Shown here: positions 596-57,450 of the stretch, piece after piece
How positions within the stretch are numbered: position 1 is the stretch's first letter
How the letters are laid out: every line of letters starts with the position of its first letter
Assembly (NCBI GenBank): GCA_965262895.1
Contig: OZ253568.1
Coordinates: forward strand, 3,086,479-3,150,478
Source of the DNA: Chloroflexota bacterium
GTDB lineage: Bacteria > Chloroflexota > UBA6077 > FW602-bin22 > JBCLEL01
DNA: 64,000 bases
Direction of reading: 5' to 3'
Program-made: the position numbers and the translations under genes
The notes under the pieces: generated by a model
Told to the model about the DNA's origin: nothing
Database searches by the model: none
Seen by the model: the letters and a program-made list of their open reading frames with translations, nothing else

Positions 596-619
596 GAGTC
601 TACCTTTACTGGAGACCTT

Positions 620-6189: not shown

Positions 6190-6910
6190 ACGTAGCCCGT
6201 ATAGATTCAGATTGGTACGAAAGCATGTCCCGGACTCCGATCCGGGATGAATTCCGGCGCCGGCCGGCGACACCAACCACCGTCACCTGAACAACGACTG
6301 CCCAGGGTCGCAAGAGAAATGTAGCGCTGGGGCTTGTCCCCAGCTGGGGAGGGGCCGCACGCGGCAATGATGCCCGAACTCTACTGCCTACCAGCACCCG
6401 CAATTTTCATACCTCAGTGTGCCGGCGCCAGCCGGCGTGAGCGATTGGTACGAAAATGATGCTACGCAGCCTCGAAAGTGCCTGAATGCCACCGCCCCCG
6501 CACTCGTCAGTCCGGTCCTGTCCCCCGATCGTCAGTCCGGTCCCCCAAACGTCATTCCGGCGGAAGCCGGAATCCAGAGGGGAGGGGTGGCACCAACCAC
6601 ACCCAAACAGTTCCAACGACCAGGTCTCATTTTCATACCCTGGTGTGCCGGCACCAGCCGGCATGAACGATTGCGATGAAAGCATGTCCCGGACTCCGAT
6701 CCGGGATAGGCGCTCCAATCAGCCTCGAGGGCGCCTCCCTACACCCTAAACTTGTCGAACCGTGAATTTACAGCCCATTGTGGAGGGAGAAAATGTAGCG
6801 CTGGGGATTGTCCCCTGCCAAGGACGCTCGGCCAGCCGGAAAGGTCTCTTTCCTAGCCCTTGACGGCAGAGGATAGAAGCCTGCCCCGTACCCCGATACG
6901 GGGGTGAGGG
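6190..6910. repeat. Mosaic cluster of REP-like hairpin units (A, D, B, C, B+A, D, E)
   Basis: Unit A near 6215. Unit D near 6313 and 6793. Unit B near 6397 and 6623. Unit C near 6543. Unit A near 6672. Unit E near 6882. The small ORFs on both strands here are translations of these repeats. Confidence 0.75.
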
Positions 6911-7002
6911 CGAACTGCTTCCGGCACCGGATCGCGACGCCAGTGACAGGACGCCGGCGAATGTGTTACAGTTTGGCCCATTGAAAACAGAATACTCGAT
7001 CC

Positions 7003-7163
7003 GGTCAGGTGCCCCGCAACGGGAGAATAGGGAAGGCGGTGTAAGTCCGCCGTGGTTGCGCCACTGTGATCGGGGGTTTTGCCAGTATCCACCCAGCGCT
7101 TGGGCGATAGGGCGGGGACGGCAAGTACTCTAGACCCCCGTAAGCCAGGAGACCTGCCTGACC
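7003..7163 (+). promoter_or_regulatory. cobalamin (B12) riboswitch
   Basis: P1 stem GGTCAGGT...GCCTGACC. Conserved core AATAGGGAAGGCGGTGTAAGTCCGCC...GCGCCACTGT. B12-box AAGCCAGGAGACCTGCC. Lies about 110 nt upstream of the btuC-like gene. Confidence 0.9.
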
Positions 7164-7271
7164 CGGTTGGTAGATCGCTCTTCGCACCAAAGTGGTCGAC
7201 TACCCGGTAAGGCTTGACGATGGCTTACCGACCTCGGACCTCCAGCGAAGATAAGCGGGAGGTCCTTTAGT

Positions 7272-11054: not shown

Positions 11055-11558
11055 CTACAGAAACCTAGTAGAGGTCATGGCGCCTAATGCAATGAGGGGT
11101 AAGACCGCCGCAACGACAATCATTATCGTCAATCCGCTGCTTGAGCTCTGAGCTTGGCCGCTCAGAACCGGAGTATGGTGAGTTCCCTCTATCGATGATC
11201 CCAACATGACAGTGCGGTTAGAGGCGATCCAAGTGATCAGCCAAGCGATAATGCCGGCGATCGACGCAACAAACCCGATCAAGATGGTCAAACCCCAACT
11301 GGTGCCCACGAATACACTCAGAGTGCCACCAGTCATTCGGAAGGCCATTGTCAGTCCTACTAGTATTGTAATGACAGCACTGATTCCAACCATTGAGCCC
11401 AACGCCCGGGTGACGGCTCGCACGATGGGGTGTTGGTATTCCCTGCCCGAACCCCTGAGTCGCGGCGCCAGTACAAGAGCTCCTAACATCGCCAATCCAA
11501 CCCAAGCTAAACCAAATCCGATATGCAATGTTCGCATTACTAGTATTTCATTGTTCAT
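11055..11558 (-). CDS. small integral membrane protein (4-5 TM), paralog of 12657-13160
   Basis: 167 aa and hydrophobic, with the N-terminal motif MRTLHIGFGLAWVG shared with its paralog. Confidence 0.65.
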   Translation of the reverse strand: MNNEILVMRTLHIGFGLAWVGLAMLGALVLAPRLRGSGREYQHPIVRAVTRALGSMVGISAVITILVGLTMAFRMTGGTLSVFVGTSWGLTILIGFVASIAGIIAWLITWIASNRTVMLGSSIEGTHHTPVLSGQAQSSSSGLTIMIVVAAVLPLIALGAMTSTRFL

Positions 11559-12656: not shown

Positions 12657-13160
12657 CTACACGAACCTTGCAACAGCCATTGAGAATACGCCGATGAACA
12701 CTAGGACCGCTGTAACGTGGCCCAAACTCGCCGTCCGGTTGCTGAAGGTCTGCAATTGCATAATGTCTTCCTGCGTCGACGGGCTCTCCTCGATAGATGC
12801 GCCCAATGCCGCGGCTCGATTTGCCGCGTTACTCAACGCCAGACCGGAGATGAACCCGGCAACAGATACCACGAACCCAACTAAGATAGCCCAACCCCAG
12901 CCGGTGTTCACGAATAGGTTCAGGTTGCCCCCACTGTGTCGGATGGCCATAGCCAGGCCGACCAGGATCGTGACGACCGCGCTGATGCCAAGCAACCGTC
13001 CTATCACGCGCGCGATTACATGCATCACCGGGCGCTGATAGTCGGGGCCCAACTCACGCAGACGCCGTCCTAGCATTAGAATGACAGACAGTGCGGCACC
13101 GGCCCATAATACGCCAAAGCCTATGTGGAGAATCCGCATCACTACCATCTCAAAATTCAT
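12657..13160 (-). CDS. small integral membrane protein, paralog of 11055-11558
   Basis: 167 aa, same length and topology as the paralog, with MRILHIGFGVLWAG at the N-terminus. Confidence 0.65.
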   Translation of the reverse strand: MNFEMVVMRILHIGFGVLWAGAALSVILMLGRRLRELGPDYQRPVMHVIARVIGRLLGISAVVTILVGLAMAIRHSGGNLNLFVNTGWGWAILVGFVVSVAGFISGLALSNAANRAAALGASIEESPSTQEDIMQLQTFSNRTASLGHVTAVLVFIGVFSMAVARFV

Positions 13161-16252: not shown

Positions 16253-17324
16253 GGACGGCGGCGGTCCCGGCCCGGTCCCTCATGGCAGCATCAGCGAGGC
16301 TGAGCTGACAACTTACGGGCTGACTATCGACCAGGTTATCGATTTCAGCGTAAACACTCACCCGCTTGGCCCCTCGGAAAACGTGCGTGCCGCTCTCGCT
16401 GGTCTATCCATAGATCGCTATCCGGAAGACGGAACACCCAGGCTCCGCCAGGTACTTGCCGATCGGCAAGAGAGACCGCCCGATTGGATCGCTGCCGGCA
16501 ACGGCTCTATCGACCTGATTTGGCAGTTGGCGCTCGCATCACTGGCGCCGGGAAAAAAGGCTCTCGTTGTAGGACCCACTTTCGGCGAATATCAGCGGGC
16601 GATCCGGGCGGCCGGCGGACAGCCGGTGATTTATTGCGCTGATAGATCCTGCGATTTCTCTCCCGATCTGGCGGATGTGATCCGGATTGCCGATGAAGAA
16701 CGGCCTTCGCTTATATTTATCTGCAATCCGAATAACCCGACCGGCCATCTGCTCTCCAGCGCCCAGCTTGCAAGAATTGTTGAAGCGGCGCCGACGGCCC
16801 GATTGGTCGTCGATGAGGCATACATGTCTTTCGTCGATTCAGAAATCTCAGCGTCGGCCGACATTGCTCTGTTAGTAGAGGCCGGCCGAGCGATAATTCT
16901 GCGCTCGCTTACTAAGGATTGCGCGATCGCCGGCCTGCGCTTGGGTTACGCCGTCGCACGACCGGAGATCATCAGTGCGCTGGACGCTGTGCGACCGCCT
17001 TGGAACGTGAACGCGGCCGCAGTTGCCGCCGGTCTGGCCGCGCTGTCCGATGGCGATCACCTGGCCCAAGGTAGGGCAGTCGTAGAAGAGGCTCGGTCAT
17101 ACTTGACCAGCGAATTGAGCCGGCTTGGATACAAGGTCTGGCCGTCCGTAGCCAATTTCTTAATGGTCGAGGTCGGCGATGGTTCCGGCCTGCGCCACCG
17201 GCTTATAGGGCGCGGACTGGTCGTCCGCGACTGCGCTTCCTTTGGCCTGCCCGAATGCATCCGCATAGGTATGAAGCCGCTGCGAGATTGTCGACGACTG
17301 ATCGAGGCCCTGGTCGATGCCTGA
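16245..17324 (+). CDS. cobD: threonine-phosphate decarboxylase (class I/II aminotransferase fold)
   Basis: ..ICNPNNPTG.. and ..SLTKDCAIAGLRLGY.. (PLP lysine context). Positioned between cbiB and cobQ. Confidence 0.8.
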   Translation: MGEDGGGPGPVPHGSISEAELTTYGLTIDQVIDFSVNTHPLGPSENVRAALAGLSIDRYPEDGTPRLRQVLADRQERPPDWIAAGNGSIDLIWQLALASLAPGKKALVVGPTFGEYQRAIRAAGGQPVIYCADRSCDFSPDLADVIRIADEERPSLIFICNPNNPTGHLLSSAQLARIVEAAPTARLVVDEAYMSFVDSEISASADIALLVEAGRAIILRSLTKDCAIAGLRLGYAVARPEIISALDAVRPPWNVNAAAVAAGLAALSDGDHLAQGRAVVEEARSYLTSELSRLGYKVWPSVANFLMVEVGDGSGLRHRLIGRGLVVRDCASFGLPECIRIGMKPLRDCRRLIEALVDA

Positions 17325-18852
17325 AACACCCGTCCTGATGGTCCAAGGTACTGCCTCCGGCGTCGGCAAGAGCCTGATAGTGACCGGCCTCTGTCGTCTT
17401 CTCCACCAAATGGGTCACAGGGTCGCGCCGTTCAAGGCGCAGAACATGTCGAACAATTCCTTCGTCACCGCCGACGGGTACGAAATCGCGCGATCGACCG
17501 CAGTGCAGGCTGAGGCAGCCTGCATAGAGCCGACTCAGTACATGAATCCCCTGCTGCTCAAGCCGGAGGCCGATAGCAGCTCGCAGGTGGTTGTCTTGGG
17601 AAGACCGATCGGATCTCTCTCCGCTCGCGGCTACTACCGACGCAAAATAGACCTTTGGCCAAAGGTTACCGAGGCATTGGCCCGACTCCGGGGCGAGTTC
17701 GACGTAATAGTCGCCGAAGGCGCCGGCAGTCCAGCCGAGATCAATCTCCGCGAACACGACGTGGTGAACATGCATCTCGCCCTTCATGCCGGGGCGTCGG
17801 TATTGTTGGTCGGAGATATTGACCGGGGAGGCATCTTCGCGCAGCTTCTGGGAACACTGGACCTGCTGAGCAGTGAAGAGCGGGGGCTCGTTCAAGGGCT
17901 TGTAGTCAACCGGTTCCGCGGAGACCCATCGCTTTTCGACGAAGGTGTGGACATCCTCGAGCGTCGATCCGGCAAGCCAGTAATCGGTGTAGTGCCCTAT
18001 GTGCCCGATCTCGCAATAGCCCAGGAGGACTCGGTCGGCCTCGAGGACCGACGCTCTCGCGCCGGCCCTACTCGTCCGGATGCCAATGAACTCGACATCA
18101 TCGTCATTCGACTACCGCGCATCTCCAACTTCGACGACTTCGATCCATTGGATCGCGAGCCCGGCGTCCAAGTGCGTTACGTCGATTCTCCTCGGTCGTT
18201 TGGCCGCCCCGACCTGGTCATCTTGCCCGGCACCAAGACGACGGTGAGCGATCTGAACGCCATCCGAGCCAATGGACTGGCCGGCGCAATAGTCGCTGCC
18301 GCCTCGGCCGGAGTTCCAGTAATAGGCATTTGTGGCGGTTACCAAATGCTCGGCCGGCTTATCCGCGATCCGCTGACAGTGGAATCATCGGAGTCGATGG
18401 TCGAAGGACTGGCCCTATTACCTGTTGAGACCGTCTTTTCCCATGAGAAGCGAACCACCAGGGCTCAGGCCCGCGTCGTTGCCCGGAAAGGCCCCCTGGC
18501 CGGTGCCCACGGCAAACCAATCGCCGGCTACGAAATACACATGGGACGTTCGACTGGTGCCGGTGAGGCGCCCTTTCAGATCACTCGCCGGCTGGACCGC
18601 CCGGTCGATGAGCCGGATGGCGCGTCTGCAAGCGACGGGCTCGTCACGGGTACCTACCTGCATGGCCTGTTCGCGAACGAGCCGATTCGGCGCAGCATAC
18701 TGGACTGGCTCCGGTCATCCAGACCAATGCCGGCGCCGACCATACTGGCGCCGGCCGTCGATCCCTACGATCGCTGGGCCGACGTGCTGCGCCGAACGTT
18801 GGACTTGGAGCAGATCAATCAGTTCATTGAGGAACTGGGTGTGAACCCTTGA
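17317..18852 (+). CDS. cobQ: cobyric acid synthase
   Basis: 511 aa. N-terminal GTASGVGKS P-loop and a C-terminal GATase (..GICGGYQMLG..). Confidence 0.9.
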   Translation: MPETPVLMVQGTASGVGKSLIVTGLCRLLHQMGHRVAPFKAQNMSNNSFVTADGYEIARSTAVQAEAACIEPTQYMNPLLLKPEADSSSQVVVLGRPIGSLSARGYYRRKIDLWPKVTEALARLRGEFDVIVAEGAGSPAEINLREHDVVNMHLALHAGASVLLVGDIDRGGIFAQLLGTLDLLSSEERGLVQGLVVNRFRGDPSLFDEGVDILERRSGKPVIGVVPYVPDLAIAQEDSVGLEDRRSRAGPTRPDANELDIIVIRLPRISNFDDFDPLDREPGVQVRYVDSPRSFGRPDLVILPGTKTTVSDLNAIRANGLAGAIVAAASAGVPVIGICGGYQMLGRLIRDPLTVESSESMVEGLALLPVETVFSHEKRTTRAQARVVARKGPLAGAHGKPIAGYEIHMGRSTGAGEAPFQITRRLDRPVDEPDGASASDGLVTGTYLHGLFANEPIRRSILDWLRSSRPMPAPTILAPAVDPYDRWADVLRRTLDLEQINQFIEELGVNP

Positions 18853-19707: not shown

Positions 19708-20505
19708 GTGTTATCCAGGGAACAGCTAGCTTTCTTCGAAACGTTCGGGTTTCTTGTAGTGCCACAATCATTTGTACAGAAGGAGACGGACGCAATCAGT
19801 CAGGAGTTCGATGGAATACTTGAGCGAGACCGGCGGGGAGAACCCTTTTCTGAGACGAAGCGACAGGTGATTTACGGGTTCTACGAGAAAAGCCCTTTGC
19901 TGATGGCCTTGCTTGACGATGACCGTATCTACGAAGCGGCCGGGCAGTTGTTGGGGCCGGGATTCTCTTGGTTGGTCTCGGAGGGAAACCTGTTTGTCGG
20001 GGATACACGGTGGCACCCGGACGGCACGAGGCTGGATTTTGCTCCGCTCAAGATAACGATGTACCTTGACCATCTCACCTCCGACACAGGGTGTCTTCGG
20101 GTGATTCCAGGTTCGCACTGCCTGCCCTTTCACGAAGACCTCAAGCCGTCGCCTACGCACGACCGACCGAGGAGCTACGACAAATTCGGAGTGAGTGGGA
20201 CCGAAGTGCCTTCCTTTCCGCTTGAGACGCAACCCGGCGACCTTATATTCCTGAACATGAACCTCTGGCATGCAGCCTTTGGTGGCCGTCCCGGCCGCCG
20301 TCAGCTATCGGTGATCTTCACCCCAGAGCCCAGCACCGAACAACATGTTGAGATTATGCGGCGGAACTATGAGCACAACATCGCGGAAATCGGCAGGTAT
20401 CAATGGTCTCCGCCTGGCTCAATCATTGATGACGCGCTCTTGACCAGTGAAAGTCCTCGGGTGCGCGGACTCGTGTCAAAGTGGATCGAGCTTGGTCTGA
20501 AGTAG
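19708..20505 (+). CDS. phytanoyl-CoA dioxygenase (PhyH) family Fe(II)/2OG oxygenase
   Basis: 265 aa with ..WHPDG.. and ..LWHAA.. motifs typical of the PhyH family. Confidence 0.85.
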   Translation: MLSREQLAFFETFGFLVVPQSFVQKETDAISQEFDGILERDRRGEPFSETKRQVIYGFYEKSPLLMALLDDDRIYEAAGQLLGPGFSWLVSEGNLFVGDTRWHPDGTRLDFAPLKITMYLDHLTSDTGCLRVIPGSHCLPFHEDLKPSPTHDRPRSYDKFGVSGTEVPSFPLETQPGDLIFLNMNLWHAAFGGRPGRRQLSVIFTPEPSTEQHVEIMRRNYEHNIAEIGRYQWSPPGSIIDDALLTSESPRVRGLVSKWIELGLK

Positions 20506-22873: not shown

Positions 22874-23092
22874 GAACGAAACTCCACACTGGTTGGATCG
22901 CGTTTACACCGCAATCACACTAATTCTTTGATGACACGTCTCGCGCCACGGCAGCGTCTTTGCATGCCGTGGAAGACTCCGAGTAACCATAATACCATAA
23001 CGCTCCAATAAATCCGCCTTGTGCCACTTACATTCAAATGACCCCACGTCTGGCCTTGCTATTCCCTGTGCCCGGTTGGGTCCAGACGGCCA

Positions 23093-23101
23093 TGGTAAGA
23101 T
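23093..23101 (+). promoter_or_regulatory. candidate extended -10 (TGgTAAGAT) for the stand-alone Clp N-domain gene
   Basis: The same TGnTAAGAT element recurs exactly 516 bp downstream, before clpC. Assignment is by sequence pattern only. Confidence 0.3.
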
Positions 23102-23160
23102 GAGTTGCGAACTGCGACCGGCTGCGAGCGGCGCACTTCTTGTAACCCGGGGGAAGCTCA

Positions 23161-23595
23161 TTGGCGGATAGATTCGACAAATTCACCGAGCCTGCGGTAA
23201 AAGTTCTCACCTTAGCGCAGGAAGAGGCGCAGCACTGCAACCGCAACTACATAGGCACTGAGCACCTACTGCTAGGCCTCGTCCGCGAACGCGAGGGCGT
23301 CGCGGCTAGGGTGCTGGCAGATATGGGGGTAGAGTTGTCGAAAATGCGCTTGGCGATCGAATTCATCATCGGTCGCGGCGACCGAATGGTGATGGGCGAA
23401 ACTGGACTAACCCCGCCTGCCAAGAAGGTCATAGAGCTTGCGGTTGATGAGGCCCGCCGGCTGAACCACCGCTATATCGGTACCGAGCATATTCTGCTCG
23501 GTTTGGTCCGAGAGGGTGAAGGAATCGCCGCCGGCGTCTTGGAGGCTTTGGGAGTTAGCCTCGACAAGGTGCGCGCGCAGGTAATGCTCGTTTGA
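23161..23595 (+). CDS. stand-alone Clp N-terminal (double Clp_N repeat) domain protein, ClpC2-like
   Basis: 144 aa. About 15 substitutions over the first 141 residues compared with the ClpC N-domain encoded 516 bp downstream. TTG start and the same 5' leader as clpC. Confidence 0.85.
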   Translation: MADRFDKFTEPAVKVLTLAQEEAQHCNRNYIGTEHLLLGLVREREGVAARVLADMGVELSKMRLAIEFIIGRGDRMVMGETGLTPPAKKVIELAVDEARRLNHRYIGTEHILLGLVREGEGIAAGVLEALGVSLDKVRAQVMLV

Positions 23596-23608
23596 CTGTT
23601 GCCGGCCG

Positions 23609-23617
23609 TGTTAAGAT
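23609..23617 (+). promoter_or_regulatory. candidate extended -10 (TGtTAAGAT) for clpC
   Basis: Duplicate of the element at 23093-23101. A TTGACT hexamer lies upstream. Confidence 0.3.
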
Positions 23618-23676
23618 TAACTGCGAATCGCGACCGGCTGCGAGCGGCGCACTTTTTGTAACCCGGGGGAAGCTCA

Positions 23677-26133
23677 TTGGCGGATAGATTCGATAAATTC
23701 ACCGAGCGAGCCAGAAAAGTTCTCACCTTAGCGCAAGAAGAGGCGCAGCGCTTCAACCACAACTACATAGGTACGGAGCACCTACTCCTGGGCCTTGTCC
23801 GCGAAGGCGAAGGTGTCGCGGCTAAAGTGCTGGCAAATATGGGAGTAGAGCTATCGAAAGTGCGCTCGGCGGTCGAATTTATCATCGGTCGCGGCGACCG
23901 GATGGTAATGGGCGAGATTGGACTAACTCCCCGTGCCAAGAAGGTCATAGAACTTGCCGTTGACGAAGCCCGCCGGCTGAACCATCACTACATCGGCACC
24001 GAGCATATTCTGCTCGGCTTGGTCCGAGAGGGTGAAGGAATTGCCGCCGGCGTCTTGGAGAGTCTCGGAGTCAGCCTCGATAAGGTTCGCGCACAGGTCA
24101 TCCACCTTCTCAGCCAAAGTTCTACATACACGCAGCATGAGTCCCGCCAGCCGACCAGAACTCCGACAATCGACCAGATGGGAATTGACCTGACTGCGGC
24201 TGCTAGGTCCGGCAAGCTCGACCCCGTCATCGGTAGGTTGACCGAAATCGAGCGCGTGGTTCAGATTCTTTCGCGTCGTACCAAGAACAATCCTGCCTTG
24301 ATTGGCGAGCCCGGCGTTGGGAAGACAGCCATCGTCGAAGGACTGGCCCAGCGCATAGTGGCCGGCGACGTCCCCGAGACTTTGACAGGAAAGAGGCTGC
24401 TCACTCTCGACATCGGGTCGTTGGTTGCCGGTACCAAGTATCGGGGAGAGTTCGAAGAACGGCTAAAGAAGATCGTTGAAGAAATCCGGACCGCCGGCAA
24501 CTGCGTCATGTTCATCGATGAGCTTCACACACTAGTGGGAGCCGGCGCTGCCGAGGGCGCGGTCGATGCCGCCAACATACTCAAGCCGTCGCTTGCGCGT
24601 GGTGATCTCCAGTGCATAGGCGCGACTACTCTTGATGAGTACCGAAAGTACATTGAGCGCGACGCCGCTTTGGAGCGCCGTTTTCAGCCGGTCACCGTTG
24701 AAGAACCCACAATCGAAGAGACGATCGCTATTCTGAAGGGTATCAAGGAGCGGTACGAGGCGCACCACCGGCTCGAGATATCCGAGGAAGCTATCCAAGC
24801 TGCCGCCGACTTGGCAGCCCGCTACATCGCCGACCGATTCCTTCCGGATAAGGCGATCGATTTGGTTGATGAGGCATCTTCTCGTGTCCGACTCAAGAAG
24901 TCGAAAGCGCCACCCTCTCTGAAAGATGCGTTAAAAGGACTCGAGGCGGTCCAGCGCGAAAAAGAGGCGGCTATCAGTGCCCAGCAGTATGAGTTGGCAG
25001 CCGATCTGCGCGACCGCGAGGTCAAGTTGCGGGAAAAGATCGACGCACTGGAGGCAGGCTGGCAAGAGACGCAAGCGGCCGGTAAAACGGTCGTCACCGG
25101 AGAGCATATCGCCGAAGTTGTCTCTATGTGGACTGGTGTCCCAGTTACCAGGATTGCTATGGAGGAGTCCGAGCGCCTGCTTCAAATGGAAGATGCGTTG
25201 CACAAACGTGTCGTCGGTCAACAGGAAGCCATCGTGACGATCTCCCGCGCCGTGCGGCGGGCCCGCGCCGGCCTTAAAGATCCTAAACGTCCAATCGGTT
25301 CGTTCATCTTTCTTGGCCCTACCGGAGTTGGCAAGACGGAGCTGGCACGCGCCTTGGCCGAGTTTTTGTTCGGCAGCGAAGAAAACATGATCAAGATCGA
25401 CATGTCGGAGTTCATGGAGCGCCATTCGGTAGCCCGCTTGGTTGGCGCGCCCCCCGGTTACGTCGGGTACGATGAGGGCGGACAGCTTACCGAGGCCGTT
25501 CGACGCAAGGGATATTCGGTCGTACTGCTGGATGAGATCGAGAAGGCACATCCCGAAGTCTTCAACATGCTCCTTCAGGTAATGGAAGATGGCCGCCTGA
25601 CCGATGCCAAAGGCCGCAAGGTTGACTTCCGCAACACGATTATCGTGATGACGTCGAACGTCGGCGCCGATTTAATCAAGAGGGACACGACGCTTGGGTT
25701 CACGGCGCGCGGCTCAGAAGCGAGTAATTCAGAAAGCGCCTACGTGAAAATGAAAGAGAAGGTATTGGGCGAGCTGAAGAAGACGTTTAGGCCCGAGTTC
25801 ATGAATAGGATTGATTCGGTGGTGGTATTCCGCGCGCTGAACAAGGAAGAAATCCGGGCAATCGTCGATATATTGATGGGCCGGGTGCGTGCCCAGCTCA
25901 TTGAACAGAAAATAACCCTCGAAGTCGACGATGAAGCGAAGGATCTGTTGGCCGAGAAGGGGTGGGATCCGCAATTCGGCGCCCGGCCTCTGCGGCGGAC
26001 TATCCAAAATATGATCGAAGATGAGCTTGCGGAACAGCTGTTGCAGGGGAAAATCAAGCAAGGATCATCCGTCAAGGTCACGGTCAAGGACGACAAGCTT
26101 GAGATGAAGGAGGTCGAGCTCGTAGGAGTTTGA
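23677..26133 (+). CDS. clpC: ATP-dependent Clp protease ATPase subunit ClpC
   Basis: 818 aa. Clp_N repeats, two AAA+ modules ([16 protein letters not shown]) and a UVR-like middle domain. Confidence 0.95.
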
Positions 26134-28836: not shown

Positions 28837-29817
28837 CTAGCTGGGACCTCGCGACAGTATGCCGGCGCGAGCCATTGATTCTTCTACCCCGGACCCAGGG
28901 CGTCCGTCGTCCAATTGGTCGACGATTGGCCGTATGCGCCCATCACCTACTCTGAGCCATTGCATCAACGTTGCAAAGTCTACGCGTCGTTGGAGATCAT
29001 CTCGCATAGAGGCAATTGCTTCGATCAATGCTTGCCGAGTCCCGTAACGCCATTTGTCCAGGGTCTCGTTTGAGTAGGCGCCGGCTGATATCGCCGGAGC
29101 GGCGTGGCGCGACAACCCGTACTGCTCGGCGATCGGTCCGGCCGCGCTCCTGAGCGCGCTGGACGACAGTCGAGTGAAATCGCTGCCTAGGGGCAGCCAT
29201 CCAACCATTGCGGAAAATGACTGATTGGGTGGTGAACTTAGTAGAAGATCTAATTCGGAACGGTCGTTGTCGCCTCGAGGCGCGACCATGAACCTCGCCA
29301 ACCGAAAAAGTTGGCCCAGTTCCCGGTCGCGGTCTTGGTAATATCGCGGATCCAAGATCTGCACGATCTTGTCGAAGCCTACCAGGAAAGTGAGCCCGCC
29401 AAGCTTGGGAAACGCTTTTCGGTAGGCGATTGCTTGATCGAGATACAGGCCAAGATTTGTTACAGCTACCGAGACTCTTTGATGGGCACGCGCAAGGTTG
29501 GTTAGTGACACCAACCGGTCTACAAGACTGGCGCCTTGTTGCTCTGTTTTGTCTATGGTGTGGACGGCAATCGAGACTACTGCCTCGTCACACTGGTCGG
29601 TGCCTAGCGCCTGCTCAATAACTGCTTCGTGGGCAATCGTCAAGGGATTGAACGAGCCGGCGAAAACTGCCATCCGGCGGCCCGGCGCAGCAACACCGGG
29701 CGTCGCGTACATTACCTTGACGATTGGGGCGGCGCTCTGCCTCAGTTGGGCCACGCTGTGCCGAATGGAAAGCGCCAAACCGAGATCGTCGAACGCCGCG
29801 AATCCAGGTGAATTCAA
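28837..29817 (-). CDS. NadD-like nucleotidyltransferase domain protein with ~110-aa C-terminal extension
   Basis: GSFNPLTIAH (the GxFxPxHxGH-type motif) and LSSSALR (ISSTxIR-type motif) of NMN/NaMN adenylyltransferases. The C-terminal third is unassigned. Confidence 0.65.
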   Translation of the reverse strand: MNSPGFAAFDDLGLALSIRHSVAQLRQSAAPIVKVMYATPGVAAPGRRMAVFAGSFNPLTIAHEAVIEQALGTDQCDEAVVSIAVHTIDKTEQQGASLVDRLVSLTNLARAHQRVSVAVTNLGLYLDQAIAYRKAFPKLGGLTFLVGFDKIVQILDPRYYQDRDRELGQLFRLARFMVAPRGDNDRSELDLLLSSPPNQSFSAMVGWLPLGSDFTRLSSSALRSAAGPIAEQYGLSRHAAPAISAGAYSNETLDKWRYGTRQALIEAIASMRDDLQRRVDFATLMQWLRVGDGRIRPIVDQLDDGRPGSGVEESMARAGILSRGPS

Positions 29818-29864: not shown

Positions 29865-30122
29865 TCAGACCGCCGCCTGGACCTTTTCTTCCACTTGGTC
29901 GGTTATCTCTTTGAGGTCCGGGAATCTCCCAGTGTCCCACTTCGAGTGTATTTGCTCGCCGTCCACTGAGACCTCGAAGGCTCCGTTGAGACCGCCAATC
30001 AGCTTAACTGAGCCCACTTGACCCTTGAACTTAGTCATGATCTCGGCCGCCGTCCAGGCGGCCCGCAGCTGATAGTTTCAAGGTACGCAGTAGATTATTT
30101 CCATGTGGAACGTATTATCCAT
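29865..30122 (-). CDS. SelW/SelT/SelH (Rdx) family selenoprotein, CxxU with in-frame UGA at 30080-30078
   Basis: Not in the ORF track. GGAGGAG RBS 5 nt before the ATG. Translation: MDNTFHMEIIYCVPUNYQLRAAWTAAEIMTKFKGQVGSVKLIGGLNGAFEVSVDGEQIHSKWDTGRFPDLKEITDQVEEKVQAAV. It fits the Rdx pattern IEYCxxC/U..RA.W...E.......v.L.....G.FEV.VDG..i.SK...GRFP. Confidence 0.8.
30045..30063 (-). promoter_or_regulatory. putative bacterial SECIS hairpin
   Basis: In the mRNA, 14 nt after the UGA: GGCCGCC-UGGAC-GGCGGCC (7 GC pairs, 5-nt loop). Confidence 0.5.
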
Positions 30123-30301
30123 GTCACTCCTCCATTTGGCTTTGTGGGCTGAATCGGCACGCGTCCCTCCGCCCGCCAATCCATGCCCTACTTCTCTCTG
30201 TGGCTATTGTAGCTGATTCCATAGCGCGCGGCAGCACACTTCGCCGGCAAGGCGCGGCATCGAAGCGAATCCGCGGGTTGTGACCACCGACCGTCACCTA
30301 C

Positions 30302-41460: not shown

Positions 41461-42905
41461 CCATCTGCTCCAACTAATTGGTTTTCAGGGTGCTTGCGGT
41501 GCGTCTGGAGCATTTGCGGTTGGCATATCGAGGCTTGCGAGTGAGCGCCAGTCCGGGTGGTGCGGGCAGGATTGACTCGACAGGTATGCGCGGGGCCTGG
41601 ATGCGCGTTCTACGTGAAGGTCGTATGAAGCCCAGTTCGCGACCTCGCTCGACGAAGACCTTCACAGGGTCTCTGCCCTCATAGGCATATTGAGGCGCAT
41701 ACTCCACCAGCAGACCGATGGACACCTCGAAAGGGTCCACCCCGGCCTTGTGGGCTATCTCAAGCCTCATCGACTGGAGGACCTGCGATATTATCAACGT
41801 CGCCCATATCTGTTGCTGAATCACCACCTGCTTGGCAGACCACAGAAGACGCAGCTTGAGGTGTTGCTTGGCCAATGCGAGTGCCATCTCAATGTCCCAC
41901 CTGCGAGCATAGACCTCGGCAATGGATGGAATCGGGAATTTGTGAGGCTCTAGAACGTTGGTGATGTAACGGCGCAGTGTTTTGCCCTGTCTGAAGGTCA
42001 CCAGCCGAACGGCGTGTTTGGTCCGGTCAGCGCGGTGGACTCCCAGCCACACGATGCCATCGAAGACATCGCCGCGCTGATAGAAAGTATGTATCACTTT
42101 GTAGCTGGTCTTTGCTCTCAGCCTGCTCAGCCAATGGCAACCCCTGTCTGTCAGCCAGTCAAACCAGGCGAAACCGAAGTATCCCAAGTCTGCCACCACC
42201 AGTGTTCCCACGGGCAGCTCTGCCGCCAGATCTCGGGCCAATACCTTCTCGTTCTGATTGGGATTCGGCTGGAACTTGACCCTACGCCACTGCTGGCGTC
42301 TCAGGTCGAACACGCCGGCCAGCTTGCCGGCGAGCAGACGAGTGTCCCCTTCAGGGATTTCCCTCAGAGTCGGCAGCGTTCTCGAGATGGCCTCCAGTGT
42401 ACTCTCGTCTATGCACACCACCTCTTCGGCAAACGATGCCAGCCTATCGGAGACCAAACCCTCAAATCGCTCTGCCAACACGCTGCTGATCTGCTCGAAC
42501 AGCCTCTCCAGCGGCTCGATCCCCGCGCTATGTAGCCGATTGTAAACAGCCTGGTCTGTTACCTCAAATCGGGGGAAGAACCACAGCCCCCGTTCCGAGA
42601 TAAGACGCCACAAGGCCAGTTGGCTGCCAAAGCCTCTCAGTACGCACACCAGCAGTCCAGCCCACAGAGCCATCGCCGGCAGAATACGCGGCCTGCCAGG
42701 CCCCTTGACCCTGCGGTCTGGCTCCATCCCCTCCAAACACTGTTGGAGGAACTCCTCTATGTTCCCTAAGGTGTTTGTATCGTCACCGAGTTTCTTGGGC
42801 ATTTCGCGCTGTTCCTCCCGCAGAGTAGTCTTGTCCCTTACTACCGTGCAGGAGTTCTTTCCCAAGGGAAGGATGGTTCTTATAACAATTAGTTGGAGCT
42901 GATGG
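41461..42905 (-). mobile_element. IS4-family insertion sequence, apparently intact (1445 bp)
   Basis: 20-bp terminal inverted repeats CCATCTGCTCCAACTAATTG (41461-41480) and CAATTAGTTGGAGCTGATGG (42886-42905), matching 19/20. 9-bp direct target duplication ACTTGAAGA at 41452-41460 and 42906-42914. Confidence 0.85.
41474..42802 (-). CDS. IS4-family DDE transposase
   Basis: YARRWDIEMALALAK fits the IS4 Y-(2)-R-(3)-E-(6)-K signature; ..VADLGYF.. and ..CIDEST.. are DDE contexts. The ATG at 42802, with a GGGAGGA RBS, is preferred over the TTG at 42865. Confidence 0.9.
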   Translation of the reverse strand: MPKKLGDDTNTLGNIEEFLQQCLEGMEPDRRVKGPGRPRILPAMALWAGLLVCVLRGFGSQLALWRLISERGLWFFPRFEVTDQAVYNRLHSAGIEPLERLFEQISSVLAERFEGLVSDRLASFAEEVVCIDESTLEAISRTLPTLREIPEGDTRLLAGKLAGVFDLRRQQWRRVKFQPNPNQNEKVLARDLAAELPVGTLVVADLGYFGFAWFDWLTDRGCHWLSRLRAKTSYKVIHTFYQRGDVFDGIVWLGVHRADRTKHAVRLVTFRQGKTLRRYITNVLEPHKFPIPSIAEVYARRWDIEMALALAKQHLKLRLLWSAKQVVIQQQIWATLIISQVLQSMRLEIAHKAGVDPFEVSIGLLVEYAPQYAYEGRDPVKVFVERGRELGFIRPSRRTRIQAPRIPVESILPAPPGLALTRKPRYANRKCSRRTASTLKTN

Positions 42906-52994: not shown

Positions 52995-53590
52995 ACGCCT
53001 AGCGGCGCGCTTCATTGGGCGCTTTGTTTTGCAAAAAGTACCTCTTAGAGGTGGGTCCCTCCGATCTGATAGAGGCCGGTGGTCTGAGACGATGCCAAAT
53101 CCGGCCGGCTTGCGCTCGTCAAGACAATTTGTTTTGCAAAAAGTACCTCTTAGAGGTGGGCCCCTCCGATCTGATGGAGGCCGGCGGTCTGAGACGATGC
53201 CAAATCCGGCCGGCTTGCGCTCGTCAAGACAATTTGTTTTGCAAAAAGTACCTCTTAGAGGTGGGCCCCTCCGATCTGATAGAGGCCGGTGGTCTGAGAC
53301 GATGCCAAATCCGGCCGGCTTGCGCTCGTCAGGACAATTTGTTTTGCAAAAAGTACCTCTTAGAGGTGGGTCCCTCCGATCTGATGGAGGCCGGTGGTCT
53401 GAGACGATGGCACATCTGGCCGGCTTGCGCTCGTCAAGACAATTTGTTTTGCATTCTTGCCATCGGGAAAGCGGTTCTGCGCAAGTTGATAGAGGCCGGC
53501 GGCCTGAAATGACGTCACCAATTGGCCGGCGTGCGCTTGTCTAGGCGTTTGTTTTGTGTTTTTTCGTATTGGGCCGGCCATCTTCCACGG
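52995..53590. repeat. 105-bp tandem repeat array (4 near-identical units plus about 1.5 degenerate units)
   Basis: The TTTTGCAAAA palindrome recurs with its G at 53031, 53136, 53241, 53346 and 53451 (degenerate), and at 53556 (degenerate), an exact 105-bp period. Units also contain ACCTCTTAGAGGT and CCGGCCGG palindromes. Confidence 0.9.
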
Positions 53591-53712: not shown

Positions 53713-54975
53713 GGTTTTTGATTCTCTAACATCCGTTGTCACCCAAAGGTTGGCGGTGGTCTTGCCTTCCCCCTCCCCTCTGGATTCCTGCCCCCGTATC
53801 GGAGTACGGGGCATGCTTTAGATCGCGGGAATCACCATGGCCTTGCGAAGGCCACAAAAGAGGATGAAAATGGGACGGCGCCGGGTGGTGCAACGCGGGC
53901 GAACTAGCGGCGCGCCCTAGGCGGGGGACAATCCCCCGCGCTACAATCCCCTCTCCCCACCCCTCTGGATTCCGGCCCCGTGTCGGGGTACGGGGCATGC
54001 TTTTGATCGCCGGAATGACGAATCGAGGGTCCGGAGTGACGAAGGGATGCCGCGAATGACCAATGAGAGGCTGCTGGAGCGGTCTATCCCGGATCGGAGT
54101 CCGGGACATGCTTTCATAGCAATCGCTCATGCCGGCTGGCGCCGGCACACCAAGGTATGAAAAGCGGGAGTTGTGGTTTGGTACAGCGAATTGGCACGGT
54201 GGATTCTGCCACGCCCCACCCCAACCCCAGCGGGGGACAAGCCCCCGCGCTACATTTTCTCATTCCGCCATCGGCCATCGGCCATCGGTCTACAATTCGG
54301 CAAGTTTCGCCGGTGGAGAGCCGGCATCGAGGTTGATTGGAGGGCACATCCCGGATCGGAGTCCGGGACATGCTTTCATAGCAATCGCTCATGCCGGCTG
54401 GCGCCGGCACACCAAGGTATGAAAAGCGGGAGTTGTGGTTTGGTACAGCGAATTGGCACGGCGGATTCTGCCACGCCCCACCCCGACTCCAGCGGGGGAC
54501 AAGCCCCCGCGCTACATTTTCTCATTCCGCCATCGGCTATCGGTCTACGATTCGGCACGTTTCGCCCATGGAGAGCCGGCATCGAGGTTGATTGGAGGGC
54601 ACATCCCGGATCGGAGTCCGGGACATGCTTTCGTGCCAATCGCTCATGCCGGCTGGCGCCGGCACACCAAGGTGTGAAAATTGGGTGCATTGGTTGGTGG
54701 GAGAGTTCTAGCGTCATTGCCACAACCCGCACCTCCCCTCTGGATTCCCGCCTTCGCGGGAATGACGAATTGAGGGGCCGGAATGACGAGATCGCGGAAT
54801 GGAGGGGTTCAACGGCGCGCTCGAAAGCGGCGTAGGCGCATTTACGTACGAATGACGACATGCGGTTTGCGGACTATCGAAATGGCCTTGGCGGGTTGAT
54901 TGTTTCGACCAACTGCTTGTCGGCCTAGGAAAATACTCTAGAAGTCCTAAACATTAAAGAATAGAAAAGCCCTGG
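53713..54975. repeat. Composite long repeat A (1263 bp; mosaic of REP units with an internal 262-bp tandem duplication)
   Basis: Collinear with 57480-58415 and in the same orientation. The internal unit starting TCCCGGATCGGAGTCCGGGACATGC recurs at 54087, 54349 and (variant) 54604. Confidence 0.85.
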
Positions 54976-55122: not shown

Positions 55123-57450
55123 CTAAGTCGGCTCGGTTACCGTTATCGTCCGATCGGCAGAGATGTTGCTTATCGACTGCACAACTCCACTGGGCCAGCG
55201 GATTTCGAGCTCGTCAACTTTGCCAACTTGGCCTAGACCAAAGTGGGCGATCAAACTGTTTTGGGACAAGAAGCTTGTTCCGCTCTGGATCTCCCGAATT
55301 TGACGCTTATTTCCAGCAGTCAGAATAAGCCGAGCTCCGATACCGTCCCGGTTGCTCTGGGTTCCGGCGAGTTGGACGTTTAACCACCGATTGCCGTTGC
55401 CCCTATTTCTAAAAAGCACTGGCCGTTGGTCGTAGTTGGCGACGAGCATGTCCAAGAATCCATCGCCATCTATGTCACCAACGGCTAGTCCGCGGGCGCA
55501 TCCGGTGTGTGCGGTGGAAGTGATCCTCGATACGTCACGGAATGTCCCGTCGCCCATGTTGTGGAAAAGGGCATTGGGTTGGTCCGGAGGGTAGTTTCCG
55601 TCAGCTTTTTGCTCTGGGTATAACCTGCCGGCTACAAAGTAGAGATCGAGTACGCCATCGTTGTCGAAGTCTAGGAAAGCGGTACCCCATCCGCTTGAGT
55701 CCTCGCCGCGAACGACCGCGCGGCCGACGCCAGCTCGATTCGTCATTTCTTCAAATGTCGCGTCGCCTCGGTTGCGATAAAGGACGTTGCTGCCCAAGTT
55801 AGTCGCGAACATGTCCAGACGCCCGTCGCCATCGTAATCGCCCACCGCGACTCCCATTCCGTGAAATGCCGCATCGACGCCGGCGCGCGCGCCGACCTCT
55901 CGAAACGCCCAGCCATCGTCTCTTGGACCAAGGTTGCGAAACAGCGTGTTTGGGCGAATGTGGTGGCCGAAGTCGTTTACTACGTATAAGTCCGGCCTGC
56001 CGTCGTCGTCATAGTCAAATGAGCCTACAGCCAGTCCTGCACCATGGATCTCGCCCGCATCCAGATATTTCGTCACGTCAGTGAACGTGCCGTTGCCCTT
56101 GTTTTGGAACAGACGGTGGCTGCGAGATGCCGCAGTATACGCCCTACGAGTGAAATCTGGCGACATCTCCAACCGGAACTCTGGAACCTCGTCAAGCCAG
56201 TACGTAACGTAGAGGTCCAAATGTCCGTCGCCATTGAAATCAACCCAGGCTGCCGAGGCGGGGTGACCTTCACCGCGGGCAAGCAGTGCGTCGAACGTAA
56301 CGTCCGAGAATCTTCCATCGCCCTTGTTTCGGAACAGCTTTAATCCGCTCAGAGTCGTAAGCAGAATGTCACAGTGACCGTCGTTGTCGTAATCGGCGGC
56401 GGCGACTCCAATAGCAACCCCGTCAGGATCGGCTATCCCCGCCTCGTCTGCGATTTCGGTGAACGTGCGGTCTCCATTGTTGATATAGAGCGCGTTCGGT
56501 CCATTCGCATTGGTCAAGAATATGTCCGGCATGCCATTTCCATTGACGTCAATAAAGGCCGCGCCGGCTTGAATGGTGTCGGCACGCCGGTTAGCCTGAT
56601 GCCTGAAGTTAATTCCTGCCTGCAGCGTAATGTCCTCGTAGATTGGTAGCGTTGCCTCGGGATCGGGTCGACGCAGTGCCGCGGCAACTCTCGCTCCGCC
56701 AATCGCAAAAACGAGTCCCGCCATACCCACGAGCAGAGCCCTGCGAGACAGCCCAGGTGAGCTCTTGACTCCGGTTGAGCTTGCCGGCTGATTGGCGACT
56801 TGGTTCCAACCCGCGATCAGATCGGCCGCTAGGTGTCGATAGAATCCCCCTATCCAGTAGGCGACGATCACCGGCAGATAGGCGGCGGTGTTAAGGGCGA
56901 GATGGAGCCACATTAGATGCAACGCATTACCCAAGATACCTGGCGTTCCGTCTCGCCCGAACTCAACAAACTGCCAGATCTTGAATATGTGCTCGATGGC
57001 GTGATATCCCTGGATAAGGATGCCTACTGTGAGAAGCCACCACGCTGCGGTCCCGCGGGACCAAAGCTGTGGTCGGTGCGCACCACTCAGGGCATAGACT
57101 GAGATAAGGAGAAGAAAAAAGAGAATGTTATAGGCGAATTGAAGTGGCTCTTGGTCGAAATATTGACCGAGCAGGCCTTTCGCATTCTGTATTTCGAGGA
57201 CGAATCGCTGAAATACTTGAACGACCTGCTCGGCCTCATGGAACCCCTGAATTATCAAGAGTCCGAGGAACGCGACGGCAAGTGCTGGGTTGGGTAAGTG
57301 TCCGGTAGCTTCTAGTTGGCTCAGCCGGTTTCTAAGCTCGAGGATCCGTTCACGTATGGCTGCCGACTCACCGCTGACCAATAGCGACCCTTCTGCCTCG
57401 TCCTGTGATTTTACCCTTCGGTAGAACATCGTAAGTATACACGCGGCCAA
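55123..57450 (-). CDS. FG-GAP/VCBS-repeat protein with ASPIC/UnbV C-terminal domain (CRTAC1 family), fused to an N-terminal ~230-aa membrane domain
   Basis: Repeated ..D.DGDG..D.. FG-GAP units; C-terminal ..ELEIRWPSGVVQS.. UnbV_ASPIC motif. The N-terminal hydrophobic domain has HEAEQ/HAIEH motifs. An internal Tat-like motif SRRALLVGMAGLVFAIGGARVAAA lies at about residue 235. Confidence 0.85.
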   Translation of the reverse strand: MAACILTMFYRRVKSQDEAEGSLLVSGESAAIRERILELRNRLSQLEATGHLPNPALAVAFLGLLIIQGFHEAEQVVQVFQRFVLEIQNAKGLLGQYFDQEPLQFAYNILFFLLLISVYALSGAHRPQLWSRGTAAWWLLTVGILIQGYHAIEHIFKIWQFVEFGRDGTPGILGNALHLMWLHLALNTAAYLPVIVAYWIGGFYRHLAADLIAGWNQVANQPASSTGVKSSPGLSRRALLVGMAGLVFAIGGARVAAALRRPDPEATLPIYEDITLQAGINFRHQANRRADTIQAGAAFIDVNGNGMPDIFLTNANGPNALYINNGDRTFTEIADEAGIADPDGVAIGVAAADYDNDGHCDILLTTLSGLKLFRNKGDGRFSDVTFDALLARGEGHPASAAWVDFNGDGHLDLYVTYWLDEVPEFRLEMSPDFTRRAYTAASRSHRLFQNKGNGTFTDVTKYLDAGEIHGAGLAVGSFDYDDDGRPDLYVVNDFGHHIRPNTLFRNLGPRDDGWAFREVGARAGVDAAFHGMGVAVGDYDGDGRLDMFATNLGSNVLYRNRGDATFEEMTNRAGVGRAVVRGEDSSGWGTAFLDFDNDGVLDLYFVAGRLYPEQKADGNYPPDQPNALFHNMGDGTFRDVSRITSTAHTGCARGLAVGDIDGDGFLDMLVANYDQRPVLFRNRGNGNRWLNVQLAGTQSNRDGIGARLILTAGNKRQIREIQSGTSFLSQNSLIAHFGLGQVGKVDELEIRWPSGVVQSISNISADRTITVTEPT

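What the first reader, a model, noticed from the sequence alone, without database searches (positions are those of the whole stretch)
29865..30122. Hidden SelW/Rdx-family selenoprotein gene: in-frame UGA in a CxxU motif plus a SECIS-like hairpin
The 0.9-kb gap between the NadD-like gene and MITE copy 3 has no entry in the ORF track, because a TGA (minus strand, 30080-30078) splits the reading frame. Reading through gives an 85-aa protein whose N-terminus, IIYCVPU-NYQLRAAW, places the UGA at the second redox position of the CxxC/CxxU motif of the SelW/SelT/SelH (Rdx) thioredoxin-like family. The rest (..VKLIGGLNGAFEVSVDGEQIHSKWDTGRFPDLKEI..) follows that family's pattern. A GGAGGAG RBS precedes the ATG. 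Fourteen nt after the UGA the mRNA can form a 7-bp all-GC stem with loop UGGAC (30045-30063), a position compatible with a bacterial SECIS. This implies the organism uses selenocysteine, and standard gene callers would miss or truncate this gene.
Basis: partly seen in the sequence, partly recalled or inferred. Interest (0 to 1): 0.7.

Follow-up and report, generated by a model that had tools for sequence, protein, structure and literature searches.

The report
Missed SelW-like selenoprotein gene
A small redox-protein gene of the long-known SelW/Rdx family in an uncultured soil Chloroflexota bacterium almost certainly reads an internal UGA as selenocysteine, so gene finders report only its tail; it is a real but ordinary member of a common bacterial selenoprotein family.

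Summary
On the minus strand, ATG 30122 sits behind a GGAGGAG ribosome-binding site. It opens an 85-codon frame with TGA at codon 15 (30080-30078) and a TGA stop at 29867-29865.

With U replaced by C, the product matches Pfam Rdx (E 9.6e-23, 80.6 bits against a cutoff of 22.6) and NCBIfam TIGR02174 CXXU_selWTH (63.6 against 34.2).

The UGA aligns with the second Cys of the CxxC motif in full-length homologs. One of them reads YCVPCNY against YCVPUNY here. Among 80 related genome loci, 40 carry TGA at this codon and 40 carry Cys.

The 14 codons before the UGA are under purifying selection (dN/dS 0.08-0.25). The start codon, ribosome-binding site and TGA are kept in all close relatives.

A 7-bp all-GC hairpin with loop UGGAC (30063-30045) meets every criterion of the published bacterial SECIS consensus. 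It is conserved, with compensatory changes, in Sec-type relatives but not in Cys-type ones.

Sec-type orthologs in Bacillaceae and Verrucomicrobiota lie beside selD/selA/selB or tRNA-Sec.

One test is missing. No Sec machinery lies in the window or 10 kb either side, and the rest of the genome could not be read.

The family, motif and mechanism have been known since 2004-2008, so this is a new member of a known kind.

The parts
30127..30133 (-). Shine-Dalgarno-like GGAGGAG, 4 nt before the start codon
   Evidence: Read directly. Conserved in close relatives: GGAGGAG in nine of ten rows, GAGAGCAG in L015. A 1-nt indel lies further upstream in L014, so coding does not extend upstream.
29865..30122 (-). 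Complete SelW-like (Rdx family) coding sequence: 85 codons including Sec15, plus the TGA stop
   Evidence: Translation. Pfam PF10262 E 9.6e-23, covering profile positions 2-73 of 74. TIGR02174 63.6 bits against cutoff 34.2. PDB 2FA8 E 8.6e-14 over residues 7-80. dN/dS 0.12-0.20 against relatives.
30087..30089 (-). TGC, Cys12, the first residue of the CxxU redox motif
   Evidence: Aligned with the first Cys of CxxC in homologs.
30078..30080 (-). In-frame TGA, codon 15, proposed selenocysteine codon
   Evidence: Invariant in all 10 close relatives. Aligned with the second Cys of CxxC in full-length homologs. TGA at this codon in 40 of 80 related genome loci and Cys in the other 40.
30045..30063 (-). 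SECIS-like hairpin: 7 G-C pairs with apical loop UGGAC; the loop starts 21 nt after the UGA
   Evidence: Folded. Energy -14.8 kcal/mol, and all four criteria of the bacterial SECIS consensus are met. RNAalifold consensus of 11 Sec-type relatives is -14.0 kcal/mol, with compensatory changes in 2 pairs. There is no conserved hairpin in 14 Cys-type homologs.
29865..30038 (-). 57-aa ORF that gene callers report instead of the full gene (starts at internal Met29)
   Evidence: Identical to P0001, which is held by NCBI, JGI, ENA and Logan; JGI names it 'selenoprotein W-related protein'.
29865..29867 (-). TGA stop codon of the same gene, so UGA has two meanings within 258 nt
   Evidence: TGA also ends 16 of the 32 open frames of 250 codons or more in the window.
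28837..29817 (-). Downstream 326-aa gene on the same strand, 47 nt after the stop. It has a nucleotidyltransferase-like fold of unclear specificity and is probably co-transcribed.
   Evidence: No terminator-like site between the two genes. The pair is conserved down to L018 and in L014, which has different flanks. It scores far below the NadD and CoaD cutoffs.

Best explanation
This is an intact gene for an 85-residue thioredoxin-fold protein of the SelW/SelT/SelH (Rdx) family. Its active-site motif is Cys12-Val-Pro-Sec15.

Translation starts at ATG 30122. When the ribosome reaches UGA at codon 15, the hairpin 14 nt downstream (loop UGGAC) is bound by the elongation factor SelB carrying Sec-tRNA(Sec), and selenocysteine is inserted instead of terminating. 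The second UGA (29867-29865) has no such hairpin and acts as the stop.

The product presumably cycles between a selenol/thiol form and a selenenylsulfide form, acting as a small redox protein. Its substrate is unknown.

Shown here: the frame, family membership, Cys/Sec alignment, selection on both sides of the UGA, and a conserved hairpin. Inferred: SelB binding, actual Sec insertion, and redox function.
For: - Family: Pfam Rdx E 9.6e-23, TIGR02174 above its cutoff, and solved Cys-type bacterial homologs 2FA8, 2OBK, 2OKA, 2OJL and 2P0G.
- The UGA aligns with the second Cys of CxxC. The window's YCVPUNY matches YCVPCNY in P0009.
- Of 80 loci in reference genomes, 40 have TGA and 40 have Cys at this codon. 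All Sec-type loci keep the upstream hhIxYCxx peptide in frame.
- Close relatives keep the ATG (GTG in L018), the ribosome-binding site, the TGA and the frame without indels.
- dN/dS of the 14 codons before the UGA is 0.08-0.25, similar to 0.07-0.23 after it.
- The hairpin meets the bSECIS criteria: loop 5 nt, stem 7 bp, G at loop position 2, spacing 21 nt, -14.8 kcal/mol (criteria from PMC13188914).
- The hairpin is rarer than chance: 0.64% of TGA triplets in the window have one as good, and only 0.9% of synonymous recodings fold as well.
- The hairpin is conserved with G-C to A-U and C-G to G-C swaps in Sec-type relatives. It is not a conserved structure in Cys-type homologs.
- Sec-type orthologs lie next to selD/selA/selB in three Bacillaceae genomes. 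They lie next to tRNA-Sec in L067 and L080.
- TGA is the commonest ordinary stop in the window.
- Sec use is documented in Chloroflexota (PMC1794560, PMC13326102).
Against: - No selA, selB, selD or tRNA-Sec lies in the 64-kb window or in about 7-9 kb beyond each end. The AIRS-family gene at the left edge is not SelD. The rest of the genome could not be inspected, so Sec decoding in this organism is inferred.
- The hairpin lies on the family's most conserved peptide (RAAW.A). Part of its sequence conservation therefore comes from the protein.
- Individual Cys-type homologs fold about as stably as Sec-type ones when compared with synonymous recodings.
- Only 15 of 40 Sec-type loci pass a strict no-bulge version of the consensus.
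- There is no experimental evidence.
Confidence: 0.88

Rival explanations
1. The TGA at codon 15 is a true stop. The functional gene would be the 57-aa ORF from ATG 30038, as annotated in public records, and the upstream 14 codons would be untranslated leader.
For: Gene callers in NCBI, JGI and ENA records report exactly this ORF. Met29 is conserved within the closest clade. Sec machinery was not seen in the region that could be read.
Against: - The upstream 14 codons evolve like protein, with dN/dS 0.08-0.25, no indels, and a conserved ATG and Shine-Dalgarno site.
- The Rdx profile match starts at residue 7, so the family domain spans the TGA.
- Met29 is Leu in most homologs and in the Sec-type relatives L053, L058 and L084.
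- A 57-aa product would lack strand 1, the redox motif and most of helix 1. This is inferred from the alignment to 2FA8.
- ATG 30038 lies just after the hairpin's 3' arm and has no clear Shine-Dalgarno site.
Confidence: 0.05
2. This is a pseudogene: a Cys-type Rdx gene inactivated by a TGC/TGT to TGA mutation.
For: One nucleotide separates TGA from TGC or TGT, and Cys-type homologs are common.
Against: TGA is invariant in every close relative across 63-100% protein identity, and purifying selection acts on both sides. The same codon is TGA in 40 species from several phyla. A conserved downstream hairpin co-occurs with it.
Confidence: 0.03
3. UGA is read as a standard amino acid, either through genome-wide reassignment to Trp or Gly or through Cys insertion by a variant Sec-like system. 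No selenium would be involved.
For: The read-through itself is only inferred. Selenium dependence and the Sec machinery were not tested.
Against: TGA ends 16 of the 32 long open frames in the window and ends this very gene, so there is no global reassignment. The family-wide Cys/TGA alternation with a SECIS-type hairpin, and the linkage to selA/B/D and tRNA-Sec in other phyla, point to Sec.
Confidence: 0.02

Closest known systems
Bacterial SelW-like selenoproteins (CxxU; Pfam Rdx PF10262, formerly PF05169; NCBIfam TIGR02174), described by Kryukov, Zhang and Gladyshev
   Same: Same family by HMM. Same CxxU motif near the N-terminus, same size of about 80-100 aa, and a SECIS hairpin inside the coding region right after the UGA. 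[quoted passage not shown]
   Different: Nothing of kind. This copy comes from an uncultured soil Chloroflexota lineage. It uses a CVPU motif and an all-GC 7-bp stem with loop UGGAC. Other subclades use shifted or bulged stems, or GUC/GUU loops.
Cys-type bacterial Rdx proteins with solved structures (Atu0228 2FA8, 2OBK, 2OKA, 2OJL, 2P0G)
   Same: They align over residues 7-81 at E 1e-11 to 1e-14, with CxxC aligned to CxxU.
   Different: They carry Cys instead of Sec and usually have a C-terminal extension ending ...LGH. No conserved hairpin follows the Cys codon.
Mammalian selenoprotein W (SelW/SEPW1) and the SelT, SelH and Rdx12 proteins
   Same: Same Rdx thioredoxin-like family and the same CxxU motif (family knowledge; Pfam model name).
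   Different: Eukaryotic genes place the SECIS in the 3' UTR and use SBP2 and eEFSec. Here the signal lies within the coding region, as in bacteria (PMC13188914).
E. coli fdhF SECIS, the reference bacterial SECIS
   Same: A hairpin immediately downstream of the UGA, with a G-containing small apical loop that SelB recognises (PMC13188914).
   Different: There is no sequence similarity. Here the loop is UGGAC rather than GGUC, and it starts 21 nt after the UGA; from memory the figure for fdhF is about 18 nt. Binding by SelB is not tested.

Membership tests
Rdx / SelW-SelT-SelH family (PF10262, TIGR02174) | Profile HMM match above the curated cutoff over the whole domain | tested here: met
   PF10262 80.6 bits against 22.6, profile positions 2-73 of 74. 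TIGR02174 63.6 bits against 34.2. Scored with U replaced by C.
Rdx / SelW-SelT-SelH family (PF10262, TIGR02174) | CxxC/CxxU motif after the first beta strand near the N-terminus | tested here: met
   IIYC-VP-U at residues 9-15, aligned with the YCxxC of full-length homologs.
Rdx / SelW-SelT-SelH family (PF10262, TIGR02174) | Thioredoxin-like fold | tested here: inconclusive
   Supported only by sequence homology to solved structures (2FA8 at E 8.6e-14 over residues 7-80). No model was built, because the U-to-C sequence cannot be handed to the structure tool.
Bacterial selenoprotein gene (Sec-UGA recoding) | In-frame UGA aligned with Cys in homologs | tested here: met
   40 loci with TGA and 40 with Cys at the same codon.
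Bacterial selenoprotein gene (Sec-UGA recoding) | Protein-level conservation on both sides of the UGA | tested here: met
   dN/dS upstream 0.08-0.25 and downstream 0.07-0.23. The frame and start codon are kept.
Bacterial selenoprotein gene (Sec-UGA recoding) | bSECIS consensus: loop 3-9 nt, stem 4-16 bp, G in the first two loop positions, 16-37 nt from UGA to loop, MFE of -7.5 kcal/mol or lower (PMC13188914) | tested here: met
   Loop UGGAC, 7 bp, spacing 21 nt, -14.8 kcal/mol. Conserved with compensatory changes in Sec-type relatives, and no conserved structure in Cys-type homologs. These criteria were implemented in my own script; bSECISearch itself was not run.
Bacterial selenoprotein gene (Sec-UGA recoding) | selA, selB, selD and tRNA-Sec present in the same genome | not testable with these tools
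   Absent from the window and from about 7-9 kb beyond each end. Only about 80 kb of a roughly 3.9-Mb genome could be read. Indirect support: orthologs adjoin sel genes or tRNA-Sec in other phyla.
Bacterial selenoprotein gene (Sec-UGA recoding) | Selenium actually incorporated at the UGA position | not testable with these tools
   Needs 75Se labelling or mass spectrometry.

The most novel reading that the evidence does not exclude
In this Chloroflexota clade the Sec-containing SelW-like gene may form a fixed two-gene unit with an atypical 326-aa nucleotidyltransferase-fold protein. The pair is kept down to 59% and 51% protein identity respectively, and also in a contig with otherwise different neighbours. 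If the selenoprotein is the dedicated redox partner or regulator of that enzyme, this would give a first concrete functional handle on bacterial SelW-like proteins, whose substrates are unknown.
Probability: 0.12. Interest if true: 0.45.

Novelty: new member of a known kind. Interest (0 to 1): 0.17.

Why it matters
The practical value is annotation. Public records of this lineage (NCBI, ENA, JGI) hold only a 57-aa fragment that lacks the active site, and the exact full-length sequence (queried with X at position 15) is not in the 15-billion-protein collection searched.

The gene also indicates that this soil Chloroflexota lineage decodes selenocysteine, which bears on its trace-element needs.

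It opens no new question. The family, the motif and the recoding mechanism have been described for about two decades, and dedicated tools and databases for such genes exist (bSECISearch, deep-Sep, BSepDB).

Tried and rejected
- Looked for the Sec machinery. ARAGORN and Rfam found no tRNA-Sec in the window. Pfam on the ten largest ORFs showed none.
- Extended both window ends by 10 kb. The only candidate was an AIRS-family protein. It scores 62.9 bits against the selD cutoff of 125 and has no GxGCK motif, so I rejected it as SelD.
I used the 70 residues after the UGA instead.
- Whole-segment folding energy does not separate Sec-type from Cys-type genes. Raw MFE is confounded by GC content. Z-scores against synonymous recodings are no lower in Sec-type genes. 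I rejected this as a discriminator and used conserved-structure tests instead.
- One register of the hairpin does not fit all 36 Sec-type sequences. Subclades use shifted or bulged versions.
- A scan of the window for other TGA-interrupted frames with Cys/Sec motifs gave only off-frame noise apart from this gene.
- The promoter and terminator scan was uninformative.
- A look-up of the full-length protein with U was rejected by the tool. With X at that position it is not in the collection.
- I ran no further search on SelD. Hits from this genome could not be singled out among tens of thousands of SelD clusters.

Full report
**Observation**

On the minus strand the sequence reads GGAGGAG (30133-30127), then four bases, then ATG (30122). 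Fourteen sense codons follow (MDNTFHMEIIYCVP), then TGA (30080-30078). Seventy further sense codons follow, then TGA (29867-29865).

The ORF list shows the two halves as a 33-aa ORF (30078-30179) and a 57-aa ORF (29865-30038). Both fall under the usual 60-aa threshold, so the locus looks empty.

The hairpin is GGCCGCC-UGGAC-GGCGGCC at 30063-30045. It begins 14 nt after the UGA, and ViennaRNA predicts it in both the 46-nt and 66-nt contexts.

**Family**

With U written as C, the 85-aa product matches Pfam Rdx (PF10262) at E 9.6e-23. The score is 80.6 bits against a cutoff of 22.6, over profile positions 2-73 of 74, so the domain spans the UGA.

NCBIfam TIGR02174 (CXXU_selWTH) scores 63.6 bits against a cutoff of 34.2.

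Sequence search of the PDB finds the bacterial Cys-type homologs 2FA8, 2OBK, 2OKA, 2OJL and 2P0G at E 1e-11 to 1e-14 over residues 7-81.

**Cys/Sec alignment**

An exhaustive HMMER search with the 70 residues after the UGA found 261 representative homologs.

- Full-length homologs carry hhIxYCxxC. P0009 reads IEYCVPCNY against IIYCVPUNY here.
- Many others begin abruptly at ...LRAAW, the pattern expected when gene callers truncate Sec-type genes.

A scan of one genome per GTDB species returned 80 loci. At the codon aligned with UGA15, 40 have TGA and 40 have TGY. Every TGA locus keeps the upstream strand-1 peptide in frame.

The nearest loci are Chloroflexota MAGs. The best is CAXXUG010000024, at 88% identity. 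That identifies the source as an uncultured Chloroflexota bacterium.

**Is the upstream part translated?**

The close relatives examined come from public metagenome contigs and share the same synteny: NDK, TPR protein, hotdog thioesterase, this gene, a 326-aa protein, IspF, IspD, RadA. All ten aligned sequences (nine distinct) keep the ATG, the Shine-Dalgarno site (weaker in L015), the TGA and an indel-free frame. The more distant L018 starts with GTG. An indel appears just upstream of the Shine-Dalgarno site.

Nei-Gojobori dN/dS for codons 1-14 is 0.25, 0.08 and 0.20 against L017, L015 and L018. For codons 16-85 it is 0.10, 0.23 and 0.12. Both sides of the UGA therefore evolve as one protein.

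This argues against the annotated 57-aa ORF and against a pseudogene. Met29, the start that gene callers choose, is Leu in most homologs.

**UGA is not reassigned**

TGA ends 16 of the 32 open frames of at least 250 codons in the window, and it ends this gene too. The internal UGA therefore needs a local signal.

**The hairpin as SECIS**

A 2026 review (PMC13188914) gives the bacterial SECIS consensus:

- apical loop of 3-9 nt;
- upper stem of 4-16 bp;
- G in one of the first two loop positions, often followed by G or U;
- 16-37 nt between the UGA and the loop;
- MFE of -7.5 kcal/mol or lower.

The window's element has loop UGGAC, 7 bp, a spacing of 21 nt and -14.8 kcal/mol, so it meets all four.

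As a background rate, 5.0% of all 1887 TGA triplets in the window are followed by a consensus-compatible hairpin. Only 0.64% are followed by one of -14 kcal/mol or better.

There is a caveat. The hairpin is encoded by the family's most conserved peptide (R-A-A-W-T-A-A), so I tested whether it simply follows from the protein sequence.

- Only 0.9% of 2000 synonymous recodings drawn from the window's codon usage fold as stably (z = -2.5).
- Across the family, however, this z-score is no lower in Sec-type genes than in Cys-type genes. Only 15 of 40 Sec-type loci pass a strict, bulge-free version of the consensus. Stability alone is therefore not decisive.
- Conservation of structure does discriminate. 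RNAalifold on 11 Sec-type relatives of the window's subclade independently returns the same 7-bp helix at -14.0 kcal/mol. Pair 24-42 changes from G-C (6 sequences) to A-U (3). Pair 27-39 is C-G (7), U-G (3) and G-C (1).
- The same procedure on 14 Cys-type homologs returns essentially no structure (-0.36 kcal/mol), because their third codon positions vary freely.
- Over all 36 W-loop Sec-type sequences the register differs between subclades, with shifted 6-bp stems in one Chloroflexota group and bulged stems in Acidobacteriota. Covariation there is modest.
- Other Sec-type subclades use 6-bp stems with GUC or GUU loops.

**Link to the Sec machinery**

None lies in the window. No tRNA-Sec was found, and there is no SelD, SelA or SelB by tblastn or by Pfam on the large ORFs.

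Extending both ends by 10 kb, on ENA ERZ25068819 contig_10, added only an AIRS-family protein. It scores well below the selD cutoff (62.9 bits against 125) and lacks the GxGCK motif. The rest of the genome could not be read with these tools, so the organism's Sec trait is inferred.

The indirect support is good.

- The Sec-type orthologs of three Bacillaceae genomes are flanked by selD, selA and selB.
- tRNA-Sec lies in the Litchfieldia locus.
- tRNA-Sec also lies about 150 nt downstream of the gene in a Verrucomicrobiota MAG.
- Sec use is documented in Chloroflexota (PMC1794560 Table 2; PMC13326102 Table 2).

**Mechanism**

Translation most likely starts at 30122. SelB carrying Sec-tRNA(Sec) would bind the hairpin and decode UGA15 as Sec. 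Termination would occur at the second UGA. The 85-aa thioredoxin-fold product would use Cys12 and Sec15 as a redox pair.

The coding, alignment, selection and structure-conservation steps are shown here. SelB binding, selenium insertion and redox chemistry are inferred from the family.

**Comparison with what is known**

Bacterial SelW-like CxxU selenoproteins were catalogued in genomes in 2006 (PMC1794560). [quoted passage not shown] They were also the most abundant in GOS, with 427 genes and motif CxxU (PMC2398784). A 2026 database lists 57,630 bacterial selenoproteins (PMC13326102).

JGI already names the 57-aa fragment 'selenoprotein W-related protein'. The full-length sequence itself is not in the public protein collection searched.

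This is therefore a correct and useful annotation fix and a new member of a known kind. It is not a new kind of system.

**Residual novelty**

The only feature that may go beyond routine is the conserved pairing with a 326-aa nucleotidyltransferase-like gene 47 nt downstream. That gene scores far below the NadD and CoaD cutoffs.

The pair persists to L018, at 59% identity for the Rdx protein and 51% for the neighbour. It also persists in L014, whose other neighbours differ. It is absent from the more distant Chloroflexota Sec-type loci.

I did not follow this further.

Noticed in passing
The copy upstream of the selenoprotein gene is 85% and 79% identical to the two other copies. Those two carry about 200 extra bases between the two halves. 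Strains differ in this upstream region (ORF calls differ in L004, L009 and L012).
   Followed up: partly
window 28837-29817 (-): The 326-aa gene directly downstream of the selenoprotein gene is only weakly nucleotidyltransferase-like (NadD model 29.5 bits against cutoff 112). It is nevertheless conserved as a pair with the Sec-type Rdx gene across this clade, including in a contig with different flanks.
   Followed up: partly
L067 742-838 and 1024-5148; L089; L091; L080 3368-3462: In Bacillaceae genomes (Litchfieldia, Neobacillus, Nanhaiella) the Sec-type Rdx gene lies between selB or selD and selA. tRNA-Sec lies nearby in L067. In a Verrucomicrobiota MAG (Moanabacter) tRNA-Sec follows the gene within about 150 nt.
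   Followed up: partly
window 1-658 (-), continuing in L097 6764-7837: An AIR-synthase-family gene of 357 aa straddles the left window edge. It scores below the cutoffs for HypE, ThiL and SelD and lacks the SelD GxGCK motif, so its specificity is unknown.
   Followed up: yes
window 23087-23582 and 23603-24098: A 496-nt direct duplication (88% identity) at and just upstream of the 5' end of the ClpC/ClpB-type AAA+ gene (23677-26133). It suggests a duplicated Clp_N segment or a separate 144-aa ORF.
   Followed up: no
window 53023-53453; 54007-54975 and 57708-58415; 6529-6818: Tandem repeats with a period of about 105 nt, and a repeat of about 630 nt (94% identity) flanking the FG-GAP/ASPIC gene (55123-57450). 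A weaker inverted copy lies near 6529-6818.
   Followed up: no
window 6990-7175 (+): A cobalamin riboswitch (83.8 bits) lies ahead of FecCD, a periplasmic-binding protein and an ABC transporter, with cobalamin biosynthesis genes such as CobQ at 17317-18852 further on.
   Followed up: no
window 41474-42865 (-): A DDE_Tnp_1 transposase of 463 aa. Three 167-aa ATG ORFs on the minus strand (11055-11558, 12657-13160, 19768-20271) are also called as genes without Pfam hits in the related contig.
   Followed up: no
protein cluster of P0005: The 90%-identity cluster of the 57-aa fragment P0005 contains an unrelated 463-aa protein (P0159). This is probably a clustering artefact in the database.
   Followed up: partly
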